From Leucoraja ocellata (lineage: Eukaryota), in the NCBI GenBank assembly GCA_036785375.1, contig JAWMAR010000535.1, positions 310,001 to 374,000 of the forward strand: 64,000 nt of DNA, read 5' to 3'. The position numbers and the translations under genes are program-made. Shown here piece after piece: positions 5,675-57,311 of this stretch. The stretch's first letter is position 1, and every line of letters begins with the position of its first letter. The notes beneath the pieces are model-generated. The model was not told the DNA's origin. It did not search any database and was given only the letters and a program-made list of their open reading frames with translations.

Positions 5675-5960
5675 GGTGATATAGTGGTGCAGCAGTAGAG
5701 TTGCTGCCTTACAATGTCAGAGAACCTGGTTCAATCCTGATTATGGGTGCTATCTGTACGGAGTTTGTACATTCTCCCTGTGACTGCGTGTGTTTTCTCC
5801 GGGTGTTCTGGTTTCCTCCCACATTCCAAAGGCATGCAGGTTTGTAGGTTAATTGCCTTTGGTTAATTATCCCTAGTGCGTAGGATAGAACTACTGTACA
5901 TGGTTGAGTGAGCTGAAAGGCCTGTTTCCACGCTGTATCTCGAAATGAAACAAAACTAAA
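5675..5960 (+). mobile_element. HE1-like tRNA-derived V-SINE
   Basis: A-box-like TAGTGGTGCAGCAGTAG, B box GGTTCAATCC, V-core GGAGTTTGTACATTCTCCC..GGTTTCCTCCCACA, CR1-like tail. Confidence 0.85.
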
Positions 5961-5994
5961 AAGTGTAATGACACATTTTTCTTTACTCCCCCAG

Positions 5995-6324
5995 GTATTC
6001 AAACAAAAGAGCTTGAAAGTAGTGGGTCTGTAACTGCTGTAAAAGGCAGTTCTGCAGCATTACATTGTGCCTCTTCAAACAAAGATCTCAAACTGGTATT
6101 AGTTGAATGGGAGAAGTCCGAAAACAGAACGAAACTCGTTGTGTTCAACGCGGCCACAAACGCAACAACTCCCCACAGTGAACGAATAAAATTGGAAGTT
6201 AATGGACATCGATCCACGATCACAATCATAGGAGTTCAGCCAGCAGACAGTGGCTGGTACACCTGCATATTTCATACCTATCCAAACGGCAAAATAGAGG
6301 GCAAAGTACACTTGGATGTAAACG
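5995..6324 (+). CDS. TIGIT: IgV-domain exon of a TIGIT-like (nectin/PVR-binding family) receptor
   Basis: Acceptor tttttctttactcccccag, donor G|gtaatg, phase 1-1, open frame (G)IQTKELESSGSVTAVKGSSAALHCASSNKDLKLVLVEWEKSENRTKLVVFNAATNATTPHSERIKLEVNGHRSTITIIGVQPADSGWYTCIFHTYPNGKIEGKVHLDVN. It has the V-set C, W and D-x-G-x-Y-x-C; CIFHTYPNG parallels TIGIT CIYHTYPDG. The exon is well supported; the symbol is tentative. Confidence 0.75.
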
Positions 6325-7158
6325 GTAATGTTTTACAAAATATGTCAAATTTATGAACTGCTTTGAATGATGTAAAATTAAGCAATATTTAAATGGAGGT
6401 TTTCAAAATGGTGAATGGATACATTTATTCCAGAGAGCTCAGATAAATCTCAAATGGATACATTTTTATAATGATTAGAAATCCCAATTTGCTGAAAGAT
6501 TTTTCTTAAATACTCTCATCTGCCAATTATGGATCACGCTAATAGTGTTTATAAAAGTACCACAACTTTTTAATACAAAAGGTGGAAGTTATATGGAACT
6601 AGCTGCCAGAGTGGGCAGTTGAGTAGGTTGTTGTGTACTATTACAACATCTAAAAAACATTCGGACAGGTACATAGATAGGAGAGGTTTAGAAGGATGTG
6701 GGCCAAATGCAGGCAGGTGAGACTAATGTAGGTGGAGCACATTGGTAGGTGTTGGCTGGAAATCTGAAACATAAACAAAAAGTGCTTGAAATTCTCAACA
6801 AGTTAAGCAGCATCTGTGGATGGAGAAACAATATTAATGTTTCAGATTGAAAACCTTTCCGACTTAATGTTTCATGTTGACGGCCCTTAGGTAAAACTGA
6901 TGAAATGTTAATTGTTTCTTACTCCACAAAAGCTGCCTCACCTGCTGAATTACTCCAGCATTTTGAGTCTATCTTCAGCCATGTCCTTGATGGGTGAAAG
7001 AACAGGCCTTAGCAGCCCCATGGTCCATTCCATTTCTTGTACCACAACGTTTTTGAGGTGATTCATTCATTGAATCTGATCTTTGAAGTTGATCAATAAT
7101 AATATAATTCAGTGAATAATTTGAACATGCATTTGTAAACCTTTTTTGTTATTAACAG

Positions 7159-7215: not shown

Positions 7216-7772
7216 GTGAGAATTAAAACAAAACTCTGTCCATTATCCTCACAATTTCAGTATTAGTTTATAATCTTGAATTACTATTAATTTAATGTTG
7301 GTAGAATATTACAAAGAATCTGTAAAACATGTACAGGTTATGCTAGTTATGCAAATAGAAGTTACTACATAGCTTTTCAAATCCAGTTATACTAAACTTA
7401 TGTTATTTATTTTTATTATGTTATCCTAATGGTTATACAGTATTAATTTATCTTGCCCTTTAAGCTTTTATGCTTCAATGACTTCTGTACAATCAATTTG
7501 ATTTCACTTGAAATATCATGAATGCATTATCAACTACTTTTGGGCGGCTGTGGCTTTTAACCCAAATAATTTGAGCAGCTAATTTGCGGTGTCTTTAATG
7601 CTCTTAATCTTCATATAAAACGGGAAGCTCAACAGCAATTGGACTCGGGGAAGGATTGTCAATAACAAAATGCATCACATTGCAACAGTGCAAATGATAG
7701 TACACAAGGGCTGTGTAAATAGGGAACTGCAGCATCATTTTACAGCAATTGGTGTTCTTATTATTTCAACAG

Positions 7773-7841
7773 TTTCAATTGGTGCCATAGCAATTATTGT
7801 TGCTGTGTTGATTACATGGAAGTTGAAGAGAAAGTCTTCAG
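7773..7841 (+). CDS. Transmembrane exon of the TIGIT-like gene
   Basis: Acceptor gttcttattatttcaacag (alternative in-frame AG at 7744-7745), donor CAG|gtgagt. Spliced product gives ILIYLA|VSIGAIAIIVAVLITW followed by KLKRK stop-transfer. Confidence 0.8.
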
Positions 7842-8074
7842 GTGAGTCCTACGTGACTGCAAACATTTCCTTTCTGCTTAACTTCCTCTAAATTTAATTT
7901 CCAAACAGACATTATTATTTCACAATGCAAACAACTCCAATAACATGTCACAAACAAGGAGACTTGCTTCCCTGGACTAAAATGTAGAAAAATTGCCACA
8001 CGGCATTATTCCAACTTGCATAGGTTTTCTCTACCCCTTAAATTACAAAATTACATTTCCTCAAGGAAAAGGAC

Positions 8075-43030: not shown

Positions 43031-44015
43031 CCTTTTACTTTACACTTTTACTTCCCTTTCTTTTTAACCGCTACACAGGTGTATGACAACATTTTCAGTA
43101 AGCTCAATGATGTTTAAAGGGAATTGAAAATGTACGGCACTTCAGATGCAGACACCAGCGACAAAGGACTCAACATCTGACCACACATAGACAATCCTCA
43201 CACTGTGCCCAGCTGCCAGCTGGGTCTCTTGATGTGGCCACACACCCCACTTGCACACTCGACTACCTGCTCTCTCTCTCTCTGAACTAAACGGTTGATA
43301 TTGCCATTGATTTATTGTTGTCACGTGTACTGGGACACAGTGAGAACCTTTTGTTTGAGTGCTATCCATTTAAATCAGATCATGTAATATCCGAGTGCAA
43401 CCAAACCATACACAAGCATGCCAGTGTTGCCAGGACACAAGGGCCTCAGCTATAGCATGAGCAGGCTCACACTTTAATCCTTGGAGAGCAGGAGGATGAG
43501 GGCTGGTCTTATCGAGGTGTATAAGATCATGAGAGGAATAGATAGGGTAAATGTTTTTACCAAGAGTAGGGGAATCGAAAACCAGAGGTTTAAGGTGAGG
43601 GGGAAAAGATTTAATAGGAACCTGAGGGGCAACTTTTTACACAAAGGGTGGTAAGTATATGGAACGAGCTGCTGGAGGAGGTAGTTGAGGCAGGTACTAT
43701 CACTACGTTTAAAAGACATTTGGATAGGTATATCAGGGCTGCCAACTCTCACCCTTTGAGCGTGAGACTCACGCCCTCAAGCAAACTCTCACGCCCTCAC
43801 GCTGATCAGAAATTTCTCACGCTCAGTGGTGAGAAATTTTGTGATCAACGAAAATTAAAAACTCGGATAAACTGCCTGGTCCGCGGGTGTTGGAGAGCCG
43901 GGGCTGCGGGAGGGATGGAGCAGAACCAGCAGCGGGAACAGATGCGGGGAACCGGGGCTAGCGAGTGTTTGCGGCGCTGTCGAGTGTTTGCGGGGCTGAC
44001 GCTGCAGCTCCGGCC

Positions 44016-44108
44016 ATGGAGCACTCCGGACAGTGCGAGTGTCCCGGGCCGTGGAGCCGTCGGAAGCGTCGCGCCGGCTGCCGCTGCCGCGAGAGTCTCT
44101 GTGTCGAA
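44016..44108 (+). pseudogene. TDP2: TDP2 exon-1-like fragment, copy A (truncated)
   Basis: MEHSGQCECPGPWSRRKRRAGCRCRESLCVE; homologous to copy B. Confidence 0.55.
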
Positions 44109-44109
44109 G

Positions 44110-45220
44110 GGACAGACTCTCAAAGGGAGGTGGAGAGAGAGAGAGAGGGGAAGGAGACAGGGAGACAGTGGGGGAAGAGAGAGGGGGGTGAGATGAGAGA
44201 GAGGGGAGAGACAGAGGGGGCATAAATGGAGCAAGAGAAGAGGGGGGGAGAGAGAGGTAGGGGTGAGAGAGGGGGGAGAGTAGGTGGAAGAGGAGGGGAA
44301 GAGAGATAGGGGTGAGAGAGAGGGGTGAGAGGGAAGAAAGAGGGTAGAGAGAGGGGGTGGAGAGGAAGGAGAGGGTAGGAGAGAATGGGAGAGAGGGGGA
44401 AGAGAGAGGGGAAGGAGACAGGGAGTGGGGGGAGAGAGGGGGTGAGAGGAGAGAGGGGAGAGACAGATGGGGCGTGAGTGGAGAGAGAGAAGAGGGAGAA
44501 GAGGGAGAGAGAGGTAGGGGAGAGAGAGGGGGGAAAAGAGAGAGGGAGAGAGGGGGAAAGAGAGAGAGATGGGGAGGCAAAGAGAAAGAGGAGATAATAT
44601 AATCATAATAATAATAATATCTTTTATTGTCATTGCACATCAGTGCAACGAGATTTAGTATGCAGCTTCCAACCGATGTAAAAGAAAAGTAAAATAAATA
44701 AATAATCTGTGCGACATGACCATCCGAGGGAGACAGTCCAGGGGGGATGGGGGGCACTCAGCAGGGCCGGTTCAGAGCCGCTATAGCTCTGGGAATGAAG
44801 CTGTTTCTGAGTCTGGAAGATCGGGCGAAGAAGGCCTTGTAACGTCTGCCGGAGGGAAGTAGTTCGAACAGTCCATTACAAGGGTGTGAGGAGTCTTTAT
44901 GGATGATAAAGAGAGAGAGGGGAGGGGGGGGGGAGGGAGAGAGGGGAAGAGAGGAGAGAGAGAGGGGGGAGAGAGAGGGGGAGAGAGAGAGGGGGAGAGA
45001 GAAGAGAGAGGAAGGGGGGAGAGTGAGAGGGGTGAGACAGGGGAGAGAGGAGAGAGGGGGAGGGGAGAGAGAGAGGGGAGAGGAGAGAGGGGGAGAGGAG
45101 AGAGAGGGGAGAGAGAGGGGGTTGAGAGGAGAGAGAGCGGAAGAGAGGGGGAGAGAGAGGGGAGAGAGAGAGGGGAGAGAGAGAGGGGAGAGAGAGAGGG
45201 GGGAGGGAGAGGGGGATAGA
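44110..45220. repeat. Polypurine (GA-rich) tracts at about 44110-44595 and 44908-45220
   Basis: Directly visible low-complexity sequence. Confidence 0.9.
44600..44907 (-). mobile_element. Rex1/Babar-like LINE 3' end
   Basis: KDSSHPCNGLFELLPSGRRYKAFFARSSRLRNSFIPRAIAALNR*, TGCAC-TGAT-GTGCA stem, (ATT)n tail. Confidence 0.8.
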
Positions 45221-45466
45221 GGCAAGGTTGCCAACTCCCATGCATTGAGTGTGAGAATCACGCATTTCACCAAATTCTTACGCTGATCACAAATTTCTCT
45301 CGCTCTGTTGTGAGAAATTCTGTGATCAACGAAAATTTCAAAACTCATATCAACTGCATGGGCCGCGGGTGTTGGAAGCAGAAGCAGCGGCGGGGACAGA
45401 TGCGGACGGGGCGCGGAGCTGGCGAGTGTTTGCCGGGCTAGCGAGTCGCTCACTGCAGCTCCGGCT

Positions 45467-45621
45467 ATGGAGCAGCCTCAGTGCAAGAGTCCCGGGCCGT
45501 CGGAGGCGTCGAAGCGTTGCTCCGCTGCCGTGAGAGTCTCTGTGCCGAATTTGCCCTGGTGACTGGCATGGATCAGGCTGCGGCTCGGTGCATCCTGGAG
45601 GACAACCAGTGGCTGCTGGAA
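45467..45621 (+). pseudogene. TDP2: TDP2 exon-1-like fragment, copy B (UBA-like domain start, frameshifted from its ATG)
   Basis: RESLCAEFALVTGMDQAAARCILEDNQWLLE|gtaagt aligns with TDP2 RRLLCVEFASVASCDAAVAQCFLAENDWEME (recalled). No downstream TDP2 exon was seen. Confidence 0.75.
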
Positions 45622-45724
45622 GTAAGTACCAAGCACTGGGTAGATACGGTGAAAGATAGTGGACTTCAAATGGGGGTGGTTGATGAAAGCATCCTGCTTG
45701 CCTGCTAGATTTCCACTGTAACTG

Positions 45725-46060
45725 CAGGAAAAATGTTCCCGATGTTGGGGGAGTTCAGAACCAGGGGTCACAGTTTAAGAGTAAAGGGGGGACCAGTTAG
45801 GACTGAGATGAGAACAAACCTTCTTCACGCAGAGAGTTGTGAATCTGTGGAATTCTCTGCCACAGAAGGCAGTGCAGGCCAATTCACTGGATGTTTTCAA
45901 GAGAGTTACATTCAGTTCTTGGGGCTAACGACATCAAGGGATATGGGGAAAAACAGGAAAGGTACTGATTTTAGATGAATAGCCATGATCATATTGAATG
46001 GCAGTGCTGGCTCGAAGGCCGATGGCCTATTCCTGCGCCTATTTTCTATGTTTCTATGCT
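45725..46060 (+). mobile_element. CR1 3' fragment
   Basis: MFPMLGEFRTRGHSLRV; (TTTCTATG)n tail. Confidence 0.8.
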
Positions 46061-47491
46061 TGAGTATATGGCAATAAAACTCGATCACTTAATTTTTAAG
46101 CCTTCATGCATGGTGGAGGTATAATGTACTCATAGAGTGATACAGTGTGAAAACAGGCCCTTCGGCGCAACTTGCCCACACCCACCAACATGTCCCAGCT
46201 ACGCTACCTGCTTTTGGTCCATGCCTCCAAACCTGTCCTATCCATGTATCAGTCTAACTTTTTCTTAAATGTTGGGATGGTCCCTGCCTCAACTACCTCC
46301 TCTGGCAGCTTGTTCCATACACCCATCACCCTTTGTGTGGATAAAGTTACCCCTTAAAAAGTTACCTCTTAAAAATACTTCATACAAAAAACATTGAAAT
46401 CATATTTCTACAGTGCACTAAAACATGATTTTAATACATCAAATTTCAAAAGGTTCCTACCCTTGGAGGGGAACCCCTTCTTCCACACCCTCTCCCCACT
46501 CGGTTGCTCCCTCACTGGGTACCCCCAAGGCAAGTGATCAGTGATTGCACAGCCTCTCCCCTTTCAAAAACGCTCCAATCCAATTTAAAGCATATTTATT
46601 GCATTCAAGTGCAAGTTAAAAGACTCGTTACAGTATGCACCATATTACACAATTTCAAGCTGAAAAATGCAAATGTTCCGTACCAATGGGGGGGGGGGGG
46701 GGGGGGGGGGGGAGGAGTACCCCCCTCCCCCCGTAACTCAGTGGGTTAGGCAGCATCTCTGGAGAACCTCGTCTGAAGAAGGGTCCTGACCCGAAACATC
46801 ACCAATCCTTTTTCTCCAGAGATGCTGCCTGACTCGCTGAGTTACTCCAGCACTTTGTCTCTATCGTTAATCGATGTTGTTTTCATTTTGGCAATTTCAG
46901 AAATCAATCTCCATAAAATAAATTTTGTGAGAAAAGGCATTTGATAGGATCTCGGATTAAAACATTTGCCGTGCACTCTCACTAAAAAAAACAACAATTT
47001 CACCAACATGCCAGGGATGAGGATTGATATTTGGAAACATAAATCACAATAATTATATTAAAATCCTGCCTAATTTTAAGAAAATATAAGAGAGATCTGA
47101 ATTAAAGAATTTGAGACGGTTCAAATGTTGGGTCACCTGCTTGAGATGTTTAATAAACAATGATACAATGTGAAAGAAGTCAAGGTATGTGCACTATCAA
47201 TTGGATCATCTATCATCTGCTTGCCACTCACCTTGAAGTTAATGCCTCAATATTGCCACTGGGAAAACGGCCAAACTCCAGACTGAGTTACCACCATCAG
47301 CAGGCTGGGGTAGTCATGTGACTGTTCAAGCCCTTACACTTCGCATCACTTCCTTTCTTCCACTGAAGGTTGGCATGGCTACCCCCAGCAATTGCTTCAA
47401 TGGAGGGGAGTGAAGGAGAGGAGGACAGACATAGGCTGGGGTAATGGGCAGACTTATGGAAGACATAACATCGCCTATCTCTTCCCTCCAC

Positions 47492-47727
47492 ACATAGAAA
47501 CATAGAAATTAGGTGCAGGAGTAGGCCATTCGGCCCTTCGAGCCTGCACCACCATTCAATATGATCATGGCTGATCATCCAACTCAGTATCCCGTACCTG
47601 CCTTCTCTCCATACCCCCTGATCCCCTTAGCCACAAGGGCCACATCTAACTCCCTCTTAAATATAGCCAATGAACTGGCCTCAACTACCCTCTGTGGCAG
47701 AGAGTTCCAGAGATTCACCACTCTCTC
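47492..47727 (-). mobile_element. CR1 3' end
   Basis: Near-identical reverse complement of 27740-27970. Confidence 0.9.
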
Positions 47728-47934
47728 ATGTTGACTGACTTGCTGAATTACTCCAGCATTTTGTATTTTATTCAAGATTCCAGCACCTGCACTTCCACGT
47801 GCCTCTTGTATACATTAGGGAGATTTTACAGTGGCTATTTAATTTCCCGACCAGCATATTTTTTGTGACGGGTGAAAAAAGCTGAGCACTAAGGGGAAAT
47901 CCATGTGGTCACAAGTGAATACTCAATGTGAAGT

Positions 47935-48225
47935 GGTGAAGCGGTAGAGTTGCAGTGCCTGAGACCCAGATTTGATTATGGGTGGTATCTGTACAAAGTT
48001 TGTACGTTCTCCCTGTGACCACGTGGGTTTTCTCCGGGTGCTCCGGTTTCCTCCCACACTCCACAGACCTGCAGGTTTTTAGGTTAATTGGCTTCAGTAA
48101 AAACTGTAAATTGTCCCTAGTTTGTAGGATACTGCTTGTGTACGGAGGTTGCTACACGGCACGGACTCGGTGGGCCGAAGGGTCTGTTTCCACGGTCTAT
48201 CCCTAAATTAAAGTAAACTAAATTA
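47935..48225 (+). mobile_element. HE1-like V-SINE
   Basis: Head, V-core and tail. Confidence 0.8.
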
Positions 48226-48311
48226 AACGGCATCAAAGGTTATGGCGAGAAGGCAGGAGAATGGGATTGATAAGAAAAATAGATCAGCCATGATCAAATG
48301 GTACAGTAGAC

Positions 48312-49110
48312 TTAGTTTGGTTCAGAGATACGGTGTGCAAACAGGCCCTGCAGCCCATTGAGTCCATGCCGACAAACGATCACCCGAACACGAATCTATC
48401 CTACACACTAGGGCCAAATTACAGAAGCCAATAACGCACAATTCACATATCTTTGGAATGTGGTGCCGACGACTCACCTCACCGTCGCGGAGCTGGCCGA
48501 GTCCAGAGCGGGTGGAGCGGTGGTGGAGCGCTGCGGGTCACTGGAGGGAGACCGCTTTTCAGGGCTCTCGCAACAGCGACTTCTCCCGCCCGAGTTGCGG
48601 GGTCGAAGAGCTCCTGGAGCGGGGCCTGACATCACCGCCCCGCGCGGCTTGGAATGGCCGCGGGACTCTGCGAGCGCACGCCGGGGGCTCTAACACCAAG
48701 ACCCGGTGTGCGACCTCGCACCACCCGGCGTGGCTTTAATAGCCGCAGGACAATCGCCATCGCCAGCCGGGGGCTTTGACTTTGACTCTGACATCGGGGG
48801 GGGGGGGGGAGAGTGCAGTGGAGAGATAAGTTTTTTTGGCCTTCCATCACTGCAATTTGATGGATGTTTATGTAAATTATGTTGTGTCTTGGGTCTATTT
48901 GTTTGTAATGTATGGCTGCAGAAACGGCATTTCGTTTGGACCTCAAGGGGTCCAAATGACAATTAAATTGAATCTTGATCTTGAATCTTGATCTTGTGGG
49001 AGGAAACCGGAGCACCCAGAGAAAACCCACTCAGTCACAGGGAGAACCCATAGTCAGGAACAAACCCGGTTTCTGACGCTGAAAGGCAGCTGTTCTACCA
49101 CTGCATCACC
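48312..49110 (-). mobile_element. HE1-like SINE interrupted by 48464-48994
   Basis: SINE core split at TGTGG, which is present on both sides of the insert. Confidence 0.75.
48464..48994 (+). mobile_element. 5'-truncated copy of the 10297-11203 retroposon family
   Basis: Near-identical 3' half; (ATCTTGA)n-like tail. Confidence 0.75.
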
Positions 49111-49537
49111 CTTTCCTGTTCCTGACTCTGCTGGGCCAGATTAGCATTTCTGCTCCTATATTTTAGGATCTTATAATCTGATAAGTAAGCAAGGTTAATA
49201 GTATTGTTTTTGGTTTATTATTGTCACATGTACCGACATATAGTGAAAAACTTTGTTTGCATCCACATGAAACATACTATACATGAGTACAATCAATCCA
49301 ACACAAGAAGAACAAGTGGTGCAAAGAGAAAAACATTTAGAGTGGAGAATATACAAGATACATTTATTTGTCAAATGTACCAATTGGTACAGTGAAATGT
49401 GTGGTCGCCATATAGTGTTACAGCATTATAACATTACAGTTAGGGAGAAAATGCAGATATTAAAAAAGTGCAAGGTCGGCAATAACATAGGTTCGAAGAT
49501 TGAGACTACACCTTAGCTTATGGGAGGACCATTCAGT

Positions 49538-51533
49538 TGGTCATCACATGTACTATTGTACATCACAAAATCCCAAATTAGTATACCAAACATATTAAAC
49601 CTAACAGAGGATTTTGGATCTTTCACAGGGTACAGAATAAATTGGAATAAAAGTGAAATTATGTCAATAAAACCCAGAGACTCAACACACATTTTAAAAT
49701 TCCCTTTTAAAATTGCTACAGAAAAATGGAAATAATTGGAAATTGAAATCACTAGAAAATATCAAGCTATGTTTAATGCAAATTACAGCCCCCTACTTAA
49801 GAAATTAAACGCTCTAATTAAATTTTGGAAAACGCTTCCGATGTCTTTAATAGGTCGAATAAATGCTATAAAAATGATCTTTCTACCACAAATTCTATAT
49901 CTATTCCAGTCAATTCCAATATACCTACCAAAAAAGTTTTTTTTTAAACTGGACTCGGATATTACAAATTTTATATGGGACTATAAATCCCATAGAATAC
50001 AAAGAACACACTTGAGTAAACCTAAAGAATTTGGTGGATTAGCACTTCCTAATTTTTTGTATTATTATTGGGTAGTAAATATCAAAAATGTGATTCACCT
50101 GTTGGACAACTCTACCCAGCAGGTGGATTGGGTATAAATGGAGAGAGAAGCCTGCTCCTCTTTTAATATAGGAGCGATCCTCCTCTCACCAACGAACCTG
50201 AATAACACAAAATCCAATAAAAATCCAATTATACACAGTACAATTAGAATTTGGAAACAAATAAACCTTACCCTAAAATTAAGAAATCTATCGCTTCTTT
50301 CTCCAATAGTTAATAACCCGTCGTTTAAACCTTCTATTATAGATAAATCATTTACACAATGGGAAAGAGTAGGAATTAAAACATTTGGAGACATGTATGA
50401 AACTGGAAAATTATTATCATTTCAACAACTACAACTAAAATACAATTTGAGAAATAATCACTATTTCAAATATTTTCAAATATGTGACTATTTGAAAAAA
50501 TATACACAAAAATATCATAACTTGTCTCCAGACTTATTGGACGAAGCAATGAATACAGAGGCCGAATCACCTAATTTAATATCATACTTGTATAACATCA
50601 TTCTAAATATAGAAATACCATCATCCGATGGAATTAGAAGAGACGGGGAACACGAACTAGCTATAAAAATTTCGAAAGAGAGGTGGGATAAATATGTGCA
50701 TAAATGCTCGATTAACATAAGACATATTTTAATTCAATTTAAAACCTTACATAGACTATATTACTCAAAAACTAAAATAAGTAAACTTTTTCCTAATGTC
50801 TCCCCTATCTGTGATAAATGTCTATCCCAAGAAGCTACTATAGCGCATTCATTTGTTTTCTGTATAAAAATCCAAAAATTTTGGAGTGAAATTTTTGAAA
50901 TTTTCACAAAAGTATTTAAAATAAAATTGATACCAAATGCAGAATTGATTATTTTTGGAACAATGAAAGGCAGCCCTGAACTAACTGCATTTCAAAATAA
51001 CCTATTTAATCACGGTTTAATAACAGGAAAAATACTACTTTAAAAACGCCCCAATACCAGCTATAAATATGTGGATTTCAAATATGTTCGAAACATCACA
51101 CCTGGAAGATATGAGACTCCTTCTAGCAGTCAAATCAGACCACTTCCAAAAGATTTGGTCTGCATTTGTCGACTTACTACAAGTATAAGATGCAACAGAA
51201 CTCTGAAAAGAAACGCTTTCAGGACCTGGTGAGGGGGGAGAAAAAATACGAAGTTGGTATAGCCCTTTCAGCTCTGTTTTCTAATTTTAACATAGCTTCT
51301 GTTTCTTTTTCTCTTTTTTCTTTTCTATGGCTTACTTAACTTTTTTTTCCAACTCTTCGTGCCTATGGGTCTTTTTTTTTAAATCACTTTTTCACATACT
51401 CTCTTTCCTTTTTTTCTTTTTAAAGCTTAAAAAATGAAGTGGTACAAGAAATGTATTATATTATCTTTGGCTTATATTATTGTAATATAACTTCTTCTAA
51501 TAAATAAAATTAAATTAAAAAAAAAAAAAAAAA
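49538..51533 (+). mobile_element. L1-clade LINE, 5'-truncated (RT C-terminus, CCHC zinc knuckle, 3' UTR, poly-A)
   Basis: VLLYIT..FGSFTGYRINWNKSEI, GRINAIKMIFLPQILYLFQSIPI, GGLALPNF..YYW, CDKC..EATIAHSFVFC..IQKFW; in-frame stops; AATAAA and A-tail to 51533. Confidence 0.92.
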
Positions 51534-53094
51534 GTGCAAGGTCGGCAATAATGGAGGTTCGAAGATTGACACTACACCTTAGCTTATGGGAGGACCATTC
51601 AGTGGGCTGATAATAGCGTGGAAGGAAGTGTTCCTAAATTTGGTGGTGTGTTCATTCCAGGTTAGGTATCTGCTGCCCGTTAGGAGTGTGGACAAGAGAG
51701 ACTGACCAGGGTGTAAATAACCCTTCAATATGTTGCTGCTTTCCTGAAGCAGTTTGAAGAATCTGTATTTGGTTTCTTCTGTGTAAGGGAGGCAACATTA
51801 TGAACACCTCCTGAATTGGAAGAACTGCTGGTGAAACATTGCTTTACCTGGAAATAGCATTGGGTCACTGGGTGAAGGGAGAGGATCAGGTAAAAGGACA
51901 GGTGTTGCACTTCTTGTATTTGCATGGGAAGGTGCTGTACGACCAAGAATGTAGGCAAGTGCAGAAGAGCAGAAACATGGTTTGGAATTGGAACTTGCCT
52001 TGATCTCGTTTTCCTTCTTCGTCGTGTCAAATCTCCAGTGAAATAAAAGGGCTCCTTGTTACTGTACCAGGTCTTATGTACTGAGCGATCTAGGAGTCCA
52101 ATGACAGACTGCATTGGTGGAGTGTAGTCAAAGATCTGTTCAGCTTCAGCACCCTGTTGACCTGTGCTCAGATTCACATGTGCCAAAGTCCCAAGCTCGC
52201 TGGCTTTTTACATGGTCAAACGGTGGCAGTTTGCTGCAGAATTTCCAGAATTCCCACCAAAATTTGACCCAGGAATATGAGAAGCTCTTTCTGAAACTGG
52301 TTAGGTAAACTCCAGACGAACATTTCCCAATGTTTTTGAACAAAAGTTGCGCATGGCCACATTTGAAGAAACACAGATAAATATGAATGCATCTTTAAGA
52401 ACTCTGCCTGTGTTTGATACATTGTTCTACCAGCCTCTGCCGTTGGCTGTGTGTTGACCATCTTCAATAAAGGATATTTTGTTGGTAACTCTGGTCCTAA
52501 TTGTCTTGATTATGAGCAACGCTAAAGATCTATTTAAAAGAATGTTGAGCTGTCCACTTCCTCTACAGATGGCGCCTGAACAGCTGTGTTCCGCCAGCAT
52601 TTGGATGTTTTACTGAATTTATCTAGAAGGGCATTGGAAGGTGCGTAGTTTTTATTTTAACCTAGTAAGTTGTTTAATGAAGCTTATGAACGGGATAGAT
52701 TATTTTCATTCAGCCTTTGGTTAAAGTTTCCTACAGCAGTTTGGTAATTTCCTGTGGATGGCTACCTTTGTGGTGATCAACCTACTTAGGTCTGGTATCT
52801 CTTAGAATATCATGCCTCATTTCCTGACTTAGACTGGAGAGCACGCTGCAATTTTTGCCACAAAGTTGTATTCTATTGACCAATGTTTAACGTTCTGTTG
52901 TAACAGATTGATCTCTAACGCATTCAATTTGTGGGGGCGTTTTGTTGATGACAAAGATTGTGTCGAACCTTTCTCTGCAGAATCTCATGAGTCTGATTTA
53001 CTCTGAAAGCCCACTCAAATGGAAATTAATTAAATCATTAATTTACTAATGGGCCCAGATGATCTGACTGTTAGCTAGCAGTTATAGATTCATA

Positions 53095-54070
53095 AAGAAT
53101 CATAGTCTTACAGCATGGAAACAAGGCCATTTGGGCCAACTTGCCCACACCAGCTAACATGTCCCATCTACACTAGTCCCACCAGCCTGTGTTTGGCCCA
53201 TATCCCTCTAAACCTATCCTATCCATGTACCTGTCTAAATGATTCTTAAAACATTGCGATAGTACCTGCCTCAACTACCTCCTCCAGCAACTCGGTCCAT
53301 TGGCCCACCACCCTTTGTGTGAAAAGGTTATCCCTCGGGTTCCTATTAAGTTTTTCCCCCCTCATCTTGAATCATGTCCTCTGGTTCTTGATACCTCTAC
53401 TCTGGGCAAGAGACTCTGTGCATTTACCCGATCTATCCTTCTCATGGAATTGTTATTGGAGAAGATGCTAGTACTCATCTTTTGCATGTGGCCATGTTAG
53501 TGACTTGGCTTGATTACTGCTGATGTGCCAATTTTCTGGTTGACCGATCATTGGTAAAGTTGGTCTCTTGCCATGCCATTCGGCCCATAAAGTCTACTCC
53601 GCCATTCAATCATGACTGATCTGTCTTTCCCTCTCAACCCCATTCTCCTGCCTTCTCCCCATAACGCCTGACACATACTAATCAAGAATCTGTCAATCGT
53701 CACCGTAAAAATATCCACAGCACACTGTGACAATGAACTCCACAGATTCACCACCCTCTGACAAACACAATTATCCTGATCTCCTTTCTAAAGGTACATC
53801 TTTTTTTTCTGAGGCTATGGTCTCTGGTCCTAGACTCCCACTGGTGGAATCATCCTCTCCAGATTGACTCCATCCAGGCTTTTCACTATCCGGTAAGTTT
53901 ACATGAAATCCCCTCTCATCTTTCCATTCTCTAGAGAGTCCAGGCCCAATGCTGTCACTCATCATATGTTAACCCAATCATTCCTGGGAACATTCTCGTA
54001 AACCTCCTCTGGGCCCTCTCTAATGCCAGCACATCCATCCTCAGATATGGGGCACAAAACTGTTTACAAT
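53095..54070 (-). mobile_element. Two decayed CR1 3' fragments (about 53095-53445 and 53575-54070)
   Basis: Reverse-strand CR1 ORF2 end and 3' UTR motifs. Confidence 0.75.
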
Positions 54071-54436
54071 AGATGTATATGAACATACTTGGCCAATACA
54101 CTTATTCATTTATTCATTGTTTCTGAGGCCCTACTCTACTTTAAAGTTTGAATACCATAAAATGCATGAATAGGCTGTTCACTGTATTGAATCATAACAG
54201 AATGGCATTTGGAAAATTAGTGTGTTTGTATCCTCCAGGTTTGTTCGATAAAGGTTATCTAGCAGTTATTTTATTCAAAATAACCCACAAGTGTTGGCGT
54301 AACTCAATGGGTCAGGCTGCATTTCTCGATGTCCTGGATGTGCTGTAATCTCTTAATTTAGAGATACAGCACAGAAGCAGGCCCTTCAGCCCACCGTCCC
54401 CACAGACCAGTGATCCCCATACTATCCAAGCGCATA

Positions 54437-56450
54437 GATACATAGAAAATAGGTGCAGGAGAAGGCCATTTGGCCCTTCGAGCCAGCACCATCATTCAAT
54501 ATGATCATGGCTGATCATCTAAAATCAGTACCCTGTTCCGGCTTTTTCCCCATATTCCTTGATACCCTTAGCCCCAAGAGCTAAATCAAACTCTCTCATG
54601 AAAACATCCAGTGAATTGGCTTCCACTGTCTTCTGTGGCAGAGAAATCAACAGATTCACAACTCTCTGGGTGAAAAAAAATGTCCTCATCTCAGTCCTAA
54701 ATGGCCTACCCCCTTATTCTTAAACTGTGACCCCTGATTCTAGACTCCCCCAACATCGGGAACATTTTTCCTGCATCTACCCTGTCCAATCCTCTAAGAA
54801 TGTTATATGTTTCTACAAGATCCACTCATCCTTCTAAATTCTAGCGAATACAAGCCCAGTCGACCCATTCCTCGTGGCCTACAAGCGGGTGTGGAGCGCC
54901 GTTTCCTAGCGGGGACCGGCCAGCACCTCAGTTTCGGTGGCGGCACAGCGCTGGAGCGCTATCGCGGAGCGGAGCGGGCGATGCCTTGCCTGGGTCGCCG
55001 CGCTGGATCGACGCCCTGGAGCTCCGGTGAGCTGTGACCGCCGAGTTCAACACCTCCGGGCTGCGGGTCTGCGGAGCGGAGCGGGCGGCGCCGACTTCAA
55101 CATCGGGAGCCTGGGAGCTCCAAACCGGCGCGGCCTTGTCGGCTTCAGAAGCCGCGGTCTCCGGTAAGGAAGCGGCCATTCCAGGTGGCCCAGCCGCTGA
55201 GAGGACTCTCCCGACGCCGGGGCAACAGCACCCAGCGAGAACGGCCAGGAACATCGGGCCTCCGTAGAGGCAATAGTGGAGGCCTCAATAGGCCTAACTT
55301 TGGGAGAACTGGGGATGGGGACTGGACATTGTGCCTTCCCCCACAGTGGTAACCATTGTGGGGGGATGATTTTTGTGTGTAAGTGATTATTTTAGTTTGT
55401 GTCCAAGATGGCTGTCGGAAGGGAGAGTGGACGCTGGCGCGGTTTAGCTGCCGCTGCTCTCTCTTCACATTGTGATTTTGATTTATTTTTTGTCTTTGGA
55501 TCAAATTCTGTCTTTAATTTGTGTATTGGTGATGTCTTTATTATTTATTTTACTCCGATTATATGTTTTTTACTCTTGTTAAATTCTGTAAGGTGTCCTT
55601 GAGACTTTTGAAAGGCGCCCATAAATAAAATTTATTATTATTATTATTATTATTCTTTCATTATATGTCAGTCCCGCCATCCCGGGAATTAATCTGATGA
55701 ACCTATGATGCACTCCCTCAATAGCAAGAATGTCCTTCCTCAAATTAGGAAGTTGCACACAATACTCCAGGTGTGGTCTCACCAGGGCCCTGTACAACTG
55801 CAGTAGGACCTTGCTCCTAAACTTGAATCCTCTCGCAATGAAGGCCAAAATGCCATTGGCTTTCTTCACTATCTGCTGTACCTGCATGCTTACTTTCAGT
55901 GACTGATGTACAAGCACAACCAGGTCTCGTTGCACCTCCCCTTCTCCTAATCTGACACCATTCTGATAATAATCTGCCTTCCTGTTCTTGCCACCAAAGT
56001 GCATAACTTTACATTTATCCACATTATACTGCATCTGCCATGCTTCTGCCCACTCACCCAACCTATCCAAGTCACCCTGCAGCTTCATAGCATCCTCATC
56101 GCAGCTCACAATGCCACCCAGCTTTGTGTCATCCGCAAACTTAGAGATGTTACATTTAATTCCTTTGTCTAAATTGTTAATATATATTGTAAACAACTGG
56201 GGTCCTTGCACTGTGTTTTGCGGTACCTCACTTGTCACTGCCTGCCATTCTGAAAAAGACCCGTTAATTCCTGCTCTTTGCTTCGTGTCTGCCAACCTGT
56301 TCTCGGTCCATGTCAGTATCCTACCCTCAATACCATGTGCCCTAATTTTGCACACTAATCTCTTGTGTTGGACCTTGTCAAAGTCTTTTCGAAAATCCAG
56401 ATACACCACATCCACTGGGACTCCCTTATCTATTCTACTTGTTACATCCT
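54437..56450 (-). mobile_element. CR1 LINE RT domain to 3' end, interrupted at 54871-55652
   Basis: DVVYLDFRKDFDKV.H, VPQ..V.GPQLF.IYIN, SKFADDTKL, LVRPHLEYCVQ. Confidence 0.92.
54871..55652 (+). mobile_element. GC-rich non-coding retroposon with L2-type 3' tail
   Basis: Ends TGTAAGGTGTCCTTGAG..TGAAAGGCGCCCATAAATAAA then (TTA)n; splits the CR1, with ATTC on both sides. Confidence 0.7.
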
Positions 56451-57271
56451 CAAATTACACTTGTTATAGAAAACTTTACCCTCCAGGAATATTTGTACCT
56501 GAAAGAGTTGGAATTGGGAATAAGTTTACTGACCTTTCCTGGGGATGGGATCAGCAGACACAAGCCTATTTCTCTTCTGTTGTTGGTATCCCTGTGCATG
56601 TTTTCCTCTCCCTCTGACACCCGCCCTGTCTCTCCAGCCCCTGCACTACCCTCCGGGGGCCCAGCACAGAAACAGTTGTGGTAAAGGTGAGAAGATATTC
56701 CTTGGAGCACAGGAGGATGAGAAGTGAATAACATCATGAGAGGAATAGATTGGGTAAATGCTCAGTTAAATCCATCCACAGCAGGTGCAGTCAACAGAAG
56801 TAAGATGAACTATTTATAAGGATATTGAAGTATTTGTAGGGAAATGTAAAAGTTGCACAGGAAACACAAATCACATTTTCCAATATTCACATGTATTCAC
56901 TTTGTGGCAGGTTAGTGATCAAGATCAAAAGTCTCAAGAGCAGAAGTATTTTAAGATATTTAAAGAAGAGTTAAAAAAAAATAGTAATTAAATTATTAAT
57001 TAAGTAATATCAAATGAGATCAATTACCATAACTTAGGATTTAGAACAATTAATAAGCTTGGCATCAACATGTGAGTTGAGTTAATAATCTAAGATTTTA
57101 GAATGAACCAATGCAAATGTTATGTTTGGGATACATTAACCAGTCAGAATATGTAAGACTGTGGTTTCCTTTTCAACAGGTGCTTCCTGTTACTGCCATT
57201 TAATTATTTAGCCGTCTAAGTCAGCTATTTTCTGTCAGTGGAATTCTAAGACAGCTATCCCACGAAACATC

Positions 57272-57311
57272 ATGATAAGAGCAGCTTTTGTCTGCCTGCT
57301 GATTGTGTCTG
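57272..57311 (+). CDS. Probable signal-peptide exon of a second + strand membrane or secreted protein (exon about 57180-57311)
   Basis: Acceptor tttccttttcaacag ending at 57179; ATG with A at -3; MIRAAFVCLLIVS(G); phase-1 donor G|gtaggt. Confidence 0.55.

What the first reader, a model, noticed from the sequence alone, without database searches (positions are those of the whole stretch)
43734..45660. Transposon-like element carrying two diverged copies of TDP2 exon 1 (Pack-type gene capture)
Seen: twice, a CA(G/A)GG(C/T)TGCCAACT terminus with CTCACGC repeats runs directly into a GC-rich leader, an ATG and TDP2-like UBA-domain coding sequence. Copy B keeps the gtaagt donor, which argues for DNA-level capture rather than retroposition. 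No later TDP2 exons are visible, and copy A abuts a truncated CR1 tail. Inference: a non-autonomous hAT-like family spreading the promoter/first-exon/donor cassette of a DNA-repair gene, able to supply new first exons. It lies on the same strand upstream of the 57180 acceptor.
Basis: partly seen in the sequence, partly recalled or inferred. Interest (0 to 1): 0.72.

Follow-up and report, generated by a model that had tools for sequence, protein, structure and literature searches.

The report
Nested transposon spreads TDP2 first exon
In this skate-like genome, both pieces of the DNA-repair gene TDP2 belong to one broken copy of a cut-and-paste transposon that carries the gene's front end to more than 900 places; the piece was likely picked up once by a small transposon and spread after that one landed inside a second, and it appears to be decaying without function.

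Summary
45535-45621 is the TDP2 UBA exon, and the intact gene lies on another contig, C127. Copies A and B are not two insertions. They are the two left halves of one ~3 kb composite element (43734-~46733) that has lost its right end here. Other copies end in a 13-bp inverted repeat. Their target duplications are mostly 6-7 bp, not 8 (49 of 63 with a TSD; shuffled mean 2.3). The exon/donor 24-mer occurs 904 times exactly. The history is a relay. A small TIR element with 5-bp TSDs captured ~1.27 kb of TDP2 (5' region, exon 1, part of intron 1). One copy inserted into a second, TDP2-free TIR family, whose empty versions survive. Deletion derivatives then amplified. The cargo evolves near-neutrally (291/134 N/S against 308/117 expected). 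Window copy B is frameshifted and has a stop codon. RNA was sparse, on both strands, and ran through the donor. No transposase was found. Verdict: an unusually large vertebrate Pack-TIR. Exon donation is not shown.

The parts
43734..43746 (+). Left terminal inverted repeat of the outer (amplifying) element; the true 5' end of the composite
   Evidence: Sharp homology boundary in other loci; pairs with the right TIR and a TSD in 14 complete composites
43747..43875 (+). Outer element 5' subterminal region with CTCACGC repeats (A type)
   Evidence: shared with TDP2-free family members
43876..43886 (+). Decayed remnant of the inner element's left TIR (inferred from its position and likeness to B)
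43882..44108 (+). Copy A: TDP2 5' region and start of exon 1 (ATG 44017), truncated early in the UBA
   Evidence: aligns to host C127:5312989 onward
44109..45222 (+). GA-rich spacer of the composite; contains an insertion private to this copy at 44597-44910
   Evidence: spacer shared by other copies; insertion absent from 39 of 39 other loci
45223..45356 (+). Second, internal left end of the outer family (B type), no longer used as an end in these copies
   Evidence: the junction 26-mer occurs 235 times exactly; the other B loci keep the upstream spacer or its last bases
45357..45368 (+). Remnant of the inner element's left TIR
   Evidence: same motif opens stand-alone inner elements
45365..45621 (+). 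Copy B: TDP2 5' region and exon 1 (ATG 45467, 1-nt frameshift, TAG 45439 in the UBA frame, UBA codons 45535-45621)
   Evidence: coding part 142 of 155 identical to host; Pfam UBA_4
45622..46354 (+). TDP2 intron 1: donor GTAAGT plus ~730 bp, including the host intron's own CR1/SINE fragments
   Evidence: collinear with host C127 up to 5314039
46355..46576 (+). Inner element 3' subterminal region, cut just before its TIR by a deletion shared by this subfamily
46577..46733 (+). Outer element 3' subterminal region; the last ~70 bp, right TIR and TSD are lost in this copy (end approximate)
   Evidence: the CR1 continuation was not found downstream up to 60000

Best explanation
This is one right-end-truncated copy of a non-autonomous cut-and-paste transposon that carries TDP2's first exon and part of intron 1, and it most likely arose by a two-step relay and is likely non-functional. 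Step 1 (structure shown, mechanism inferred): a small TIR element with 5-bp TSDs took up ~1.27 kb of TDP2 once, probably by template switching during gap repair. Step 2 (shown by empty sites): one such element inserted into a second, ~2.3 kb TIR family and duplicated 5 bp. Step 3 (shown by shared deletions; order inferred from branch lengths): the outer family's ends, moved by an unidentified transposase that leaves 5-8 bp duplications, amplified successive deletion derivatives. Step 4 (structure shown, origin inferred): an A-type left half joined upstream of a B-type element, and this composite was the youngest burst. The window copy landed in a CR1 fragment between a tandem pair of Ig V-set exons, gained a private insertion, lost its right end, and is immobile.
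For: Host match: ~1 kb at 80-81% BLAST identity, collinear through the intron, and no outer TIR motif in 30 kb of host locus. A and B share one 5' junction with host 5312989. Counts with reversed-pattern controls of 0: 1436 right ends, 904 exon/donor sites including the host gene, 235 composite junctions. TSDs in 49 of 63 complete ends against a shuffled mean of 2.3, maximum 7. Empty outer elements: 30 of 30 loci found with the junction query lack TDP2 exon 1, and their two flanks join directly; 6 of the 20 re-fetched are complete, all with 7-bp TSDs (4 exact, 2 with one mismatch). Inner element: the 5-bp duplication is visible in L217, L219 and L236. Stand-alone inner copies exist with TDP2 (L278, L354, L371) and without it (L356, L357, L361/362, L366). 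End branches are shortest in the composite (~0.01-0.03) and longest in the long and inner forms (~0.05-0.07). Decay: N/S 291/134 against 308/117 expected, 9 stop changes in 94 copies, and a frameshift after the ATG in 38 of 40 B copies. Runs of 8 coded organisms hold 0.46-0.70 of the exon's words.
Against: No autonomous partner was found, so the superfamily is open. The window copy has no right TIR or TSD of its own. 14 of 63 ends gave no TSD. In most nested copies the left copy of the inner 5-bp TSD is partly deleted, and 2 of 6 assessable stand-alone inner elements fit 5 bp poorly (L354 4 bp, L357 none). Most tree forks are weak: 10 of 62 are starred, and 33 B rows were dropped. The donor GT is kept in 99 of 105 copies. 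30 of 40 B copies have an open frame from an upstream ATG through the UBA to the donor, so raw material for exonisation exists. Synonymous changes are in slight excess (134 against 117), and copies are not independent.
Confidence: 0.87

Rival explanations
1. The cassette works as a mobile promoter and first exon, and some copies, perhaps this one, splice into neighbouring genes.
For: GT donor kept in 99 of 105 copies. Open 74-88 codon frame into the UBA in 30 of 40 B copies. Same strand as an acceptor at 57180 that precedes a signal-peptide-like exon. Helitron-borne NUBPL exon 1 does splice into a bat transcript (PMC4224331 passages).
Against: The window copy is frameshifted and has a stop, and joining to 57180 ends after 7 codons. 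RNA depth over the exon was ~2-21 on both strands, similar across the donor, with no begin/end hot spot. No chimeric protein appeared: only the two TDP2 proteins among 1116 longer candidates, and one read-through relative plus one unrelated weak hit in the representative library. About 70% open frames is roughly what 2% neutral divergence would leave (my estimate, not simulated).
Confidence: 0.1
2. A single transposon captured TDP2 directly, and the inner TIR-like motifs are incidental.
For: In the window forms only ~12 bp of the inner left end remain and the inner right TIR is deleted.
Against: Empty outer elements, stand-alone inner elements with and without TDP2, and the 5-bp duplication at the nesting site.
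Confidence: 0.04
3. The first capture used an unspliced TDP2 transcript as template, since it begins near the gene's 5' end.
For: The capture starts ~160 bp upstream of the first ATG. The start site is unknown, so the boundary could coincide with it.
Against: ~850 bp of intron are retained with no poly(A) and no exon 2. A DNA template explains this more simply.
Confidence: 0.08
4. Retroposition, Helitron capture or segmental duplication produced the copies.
For: Copy A abuts a CR1 fragment, and some loci come in near-identical pairs (L040/L045, L162/L163).
Against: TIRs with distinct 5-8 bp TSDs and unrelated flanks; intron retained.
Confidence: 0.02

Closest known systems
Multicopy animal Pack-TIRs: Pack-hAT-N8_XT carrying the CAPSL 5' UTR, and Ssk-FB4 (Tan et al. 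2021, PMC8277862; passages and section 9 read; supplements not seen)
   Same: Host-gene 5' sequence inside a non-autonomous TIR element, far from the parent gene, spread by repeated transposition with distinct TSDs.
   Different: There 4 multicopy cases were found among the vertebrate-genome survey hits, with 3-5 copies in the frog examples given. Here there are at least 903 copies, a two-family relay, and variable 5-8 bp TSDs. Ssk-FB4 carries almost a whole gene; this cargo is a decaying fragment.
HelibatN3 of Myotis bats (PMC4224331; passages read)
   Same: Promoter-proximal DNA, 5' UTR, first exon and part of intron 1 of a housekeeping gene (NUBPL) amplified to about a thousand copies. That paper reports that 5'-end captures amplify most.
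   Different: Rolling-circle Helitron without TIRs or TSDs, and transcript fusion is reported there. This is cut-and-paste, and no fusion is shown.
hAT5, hAT6 and hAT7 lineages (PMC12730594; passages read)
   Same: Short TIRs beginning CA, with non-canonical 5, 6 or 7 bp TSDs. The inner element's 5 bp fits hAT5; the outer's 6-7 bp overlaps hAT6/hAT7.
   Different: Those groups are defined by transposase phylogeny and one TSD length each. No transposase was found here, and the outer family's TSD length varies within one subfamily.
Plant Pack-MULEs and Pack-CACTA (search listing and abstracts; as summarised in PMC8277862)
   Same: Gene-fragment capture with introns, nested or serial acquisition, multicopy spread.
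   Different: MULEs have long TIRs and 9-10 bp TSDs (PMC8277862); this family has 13-bp TIRs and is in a vertebrate.

Membership tests
Pack-TIR (multicopy) | TIRs on both sides of the cargo | tested here: met
   Family level: 14 complete composites among 39 loci. The window copy itself lacks the right TIR.
Pack-TIR (multicopy) | Distinct TSDs at different loci | tested here: met
   49 of 63 against a shuffled mean of 2.3
Pack-TIR (multicopy) | Identifiable parent locus not flanked by the element | tested here: met
   TDP2 on C127; no outer TIR motif in 30 kb
Pack-TIR (multicopy) | Cargo keeps its intron (not a retrocopy) | tested here: met
   730-850 bp of intron 1 collinear with host
Canonical hAT (outer element) | 8-bp TSD | tested here: not met
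   4 of 49 called TSDs are 8 bp; 21 are 6 bp, 21 are 7 bp, 2 are 5 bp, 1 lies in a microsatellite
hAT in the wide sense (hAT6/hAT7-like; outer element) | Related hAT transposase with the same ends | tested here: inconclusive
   No matching ends near 30 of 150 listed PF05699 loci. A hAT exon beside two copies belongs to another family: 28 of 30 loci continue differently. The internal open frame has no Pfam or protein hit.
hAT5-like (inner element) | 5-bp TSD | tested here: met
   Exact in L356, L361/362, L366 and at the nesting site; one mismatch in L278; 4 bp in L354; none in L357
hAT5-like (inner element) | hAT5 transposase | not tested
   No autonomous inner element was sought beyond the patterns
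Helitron gene capture | No TIR and no TSD | tested here: not met
   TIRs and TSDs are present
Exapted alternative first exon | Transcription start in the copy and splicing from its donor | tested here: inconclusive
   One raw RNA run of a coded organism, ~6% read: low depth on both strands, read-through at the donor, no hot spot; 127 joints and 764 loose ends were not displayed
Exapted alternative first exon | Purifying selection on the exon | tested here: not met
   291/134 N/S against 308/117 expected; 9 stops (94 of 103 copies scored)

The most novel reading that the evidence does not exclude
The captured TDP2 front end is not just a passenger. It helped its carrier spread (17 of the first 30 listed right ends carry it), for example by bringing a CpG-rich, silencing-resistant housekeeping 5' end. 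The youngest subfamily's frameshift also built a new 88-codon exon, starting at an ATG inside the buried inner TIR and ending in a ubiquitin-binding UBA fragment plus donor, scattered at hundreds of sites. Some of these now cap host transcripts or yield small RNAs that regulate TDP2 itself.
Probability: 0.12. Interest if true: 0.78.

Novelty: new variant of a known kind. Interest (0 to 1): 0.5.

Why it matters
The one systematic animal survey I read found multicopy Pack-TIRs rare and tiny. Here a vertebrate cut-and-paste family has amplified a coding exon with its donor at least 903 times. The intermediates survive: empty carrier, stand-alone captor, long, short and composite forms. This lets capture, hand-over between transposon families and end-swapping be read directly from one genome. 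It gives a natural test of whether housekeeping 5' ends help transposons spread, as the bat Helitron data hint. It also warns annotators that UBA/TDP2 hits in skates are mostly transposon cargo. The variable 5-8 bp target duplication points to an unusual transposase that has yet to be found.

Tried and rejected
Autonomous partner: no matching ends near 30 of 150 listed hAT dimerisation-domain loci. A transposase-like exon upstream of L302/L306 is a chance junction with another hAT family. The outer element's recurring ~100-codon frame has no hit, and the Atlas could not read it. Four metagenome contigs share the terminus but showed no transposase-like frame on inspection. Idea that the outer element's interior is a second captured host gene: no TIR-free parent was recognised among the 40 best hits, of which 30 were fetched and 20 re-fetched long; unresolved. 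Idea that A-type elements exist on their own: L167 and L169 look like internal deletions of the composite. Pattern for an inner left end with a perfect TIR: 0 matches; the CATG-ended right end: 1 match. Run search: no RNA holder listed, which is no evidence on expression. Splicing from 45621 to 57180 was not tested with reads, because the stretch laid was 45223-46300 only. No paralogue of the 57180 exon was found in 134 kb, so the native first exon of that gene is unknown. Literature: no paper linking TDP2 to transposon capture or describing this family (open-access library only; Repbase and Dfam could not be searched).

Full report
Observation. Two left termini sit at 43734 (A) and 45223 (B), 84% alike over 322 aligned columns. 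The last 42 codons before the donor at 45622 score as UBA_4, match Leucoraja and Rhinoraja TDP2 at 83-85% and match the human TDP2 UBA structure. The host's own TDP2 is on contig C127 at 79-99% identity to the Leucoraja protein per matched exon, so the genome is skate-like; that label is an inference from these hits. B's ATG (45467) is out of frame with the UBA and the UBA frame has a stop at 45439. A's exon is in frame but cut after ~30 codons.

One element, not two. In 10-kb fetches of the 39 other loci, homology runs on to ~46696. An A-type left end lies 0.2-1.8 kb upstream in 31 of 39; the other 8 still show the GA-rich spacer or its last bases before B. Fourteen are complete, 2.1-3.3 kb, with a right TIR and a TSD. 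The window copy lacks the last ~70 bp and the TSD, sits in a CR1 fragment whose continuation I did not find, and has a private 314-bp insertion.

Counts. Exact matches, each with a reversed-pattern control of 0: right end 1436, exon/donor 904 including the host gene, composite junction 235. Among copies not chosen by exon sequence, the exact 24-mer was present in 4 of 12, 2 of 15 and 0 of 20, so the true number is likely several thousand (about 2700 from 4 of 12, with wide error). Of the first 30 listed right ends, 17 carry TDP2 sequence. TSDs were called at 49 of 63 complete ends against 2.3 by shuffling: 5 bp 2, 6 bp 21, 7 bp 21, 8 bp 4, and one 9-bp call in a microsatellite. Sequencing runs of 8 coded organisms hold 0.46-0.70 of the exon's sampled words, which suggests the family is shared among relatives; only one of these DNA-like runs was laid (X2).

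The cargo. B matches host C127:5313036-5314039 collinearly, including intronic repeats. Aligned-column identity is 92% in the coding part and 87-91% in the intron. A and B share one junction with the host at 5312989, so there was one capture. Older, longer forms extend it to 5312881-5314152: about 160 bp of host DNA upstream of the first ATG, exon 1 and ~850 bp of intron.

The relay. After an earlier AI note suggested a two-step history, I tested it. Long forms read: outer left end, 250 bp of outer interior, an inner left TIR, TDP2, an inner right end, 1.7 kb of outer interior, outer right end. Thirty of 30 loci found with a query across the nesting site are empty outer elements without TDP2 exon 1; the 6 complete ones among 20 re-fetched have 7-bp TSDs. 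A 5-bp duplication at the nesting site survives in L217, L219 and L236. Stand-alone inner elements exist with TDP2 (L278, L354, L371) and without (L356, L357, L361/362, L366), mostly with 5-bp TSDs. The window forms deleted the outer left interior, most of the inner left end, the inner right TIR and the 1.7-kb interior. A tree of 65 rows (33 of 48 B rows dropped, most forks weak, midpoint root) gives end branches of ~0.05-0.07 for long and inner forms, ~0.04-0.05 for short forms and ~0.01-0.03 for the composite, consistent with serial bursts. How A came to lie upstream of B is not resolved. Use of one element's left end with a neighbour's right end is the simplest reading, and nested left ends recur in other subfamilies.

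Function. Over the 33 UBA codons of 94 ungapped copies (of 103 scored), changes were 291 nonsynonymous and 134 synonymous against a spectrum-matched neutral 308 and 117, with 9 stops; copies are not independent. The donor GT persists in 99 of 105. In 38 of 40 B copies the ATG is out of frame, but 30 of 40 have an open frame from an ATG further upstream; the window copy does not. In one poly(A) RNA run of a coded organism (about 6% read), depth over the exon was 2-21 on both strands, carried on past the donor, and showed no begin or end hot spot. Two guessed-RNA contigs also span the donor unspliced. Many joints and loose ends were not displayed. The element lies between two Ig V-set exons that are 97% identical, 11.5 kb upstream of the 57180 acceptor. 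Splicing there would end the TDP2 frame after 7 codons. No chimeric protein was found.

Classification. It works like, and meets the tested criteria of, a multicopy Pack-TIR (PMC8277862, passages and section 9). In cargo and scale it is closest to the bat Helitron HelibatN3 (PMC4224331, passages). It fails the 8-bp test for canonical hAT. hAT lineages with 5, 6 and 7 bp TSDs exist (PMC12730594, passages), but without a transposase membership is open. That the termini resemble Blackjack/Tip100-type hATs is recalled, not tested. I found no paper on this family. Four earlier AI notes in this scan concern the same family; they are not independent support.

Verdict. Real, well-resolved and unusually large gene-fragment capture by cut-and-paste transposons in a vertebrate, with preserved intermediates and odd TSD lengths, but with every sign of neutral decay at this locus. 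Interest 0.5.

Noticed in passing
window 5949-6353, 7619-7888, 57180-57311 and G000:C535 ~387126-387530: Tandem pair of Ig V-set exons, 97% identical and 71 kb apart, each followed by a transmembrane-like frame; a signal-peptide-like exon at 57180-57311 probably belongs to the second gene.
   Followed up: partly
L303:3353-3739 and other empty outer elements: The outer element's interior has a recurring open frame of ~100 codons with no Pfam or protein hit; it could be a transposase relic or another captured gene.
   Followed up: partly
G000:C127 ~5312935-5312990: The host TDP2 5' region has ~55 bp that all aligned long element copies lack, likely an insertion in the host after the capture; a possible dating marker.
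   Followed up: no
L183, L184, L180, L105, L047: A TDP2-free subfamily of the outer family has up to three nested left ends, so end-stacking is a habit of this family.
   Followed up: no
L130: A 1.4-kb copy with an A-type start and B-type body and its own TSD, possibly a composite collapsed by recombination between A and B.
   Followed up: no
L212-L241: None of the 20 long-form copies spanning the donor has GTAAG/GTGAG (those read show GTAGGT), whereas the host and the young B copies have GTAAGT.
   Followed up: no
L324-L351: A separate decayed hAT family with recognisable transposase fragments (75 candidates); two of its copies are fused to the outer element's interior.
   Followed up: partly
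L373-L376: Four metagenome contigs carry the same left terminus with different interiors, so the outer terminus type is not confined to this genome.
   Followed up: partly
G000:C127:5401034: A composite junction lies ~56 kb downstream of the parent TDP2 gene; fetched as L211 but not analysed.
   Followed up: no
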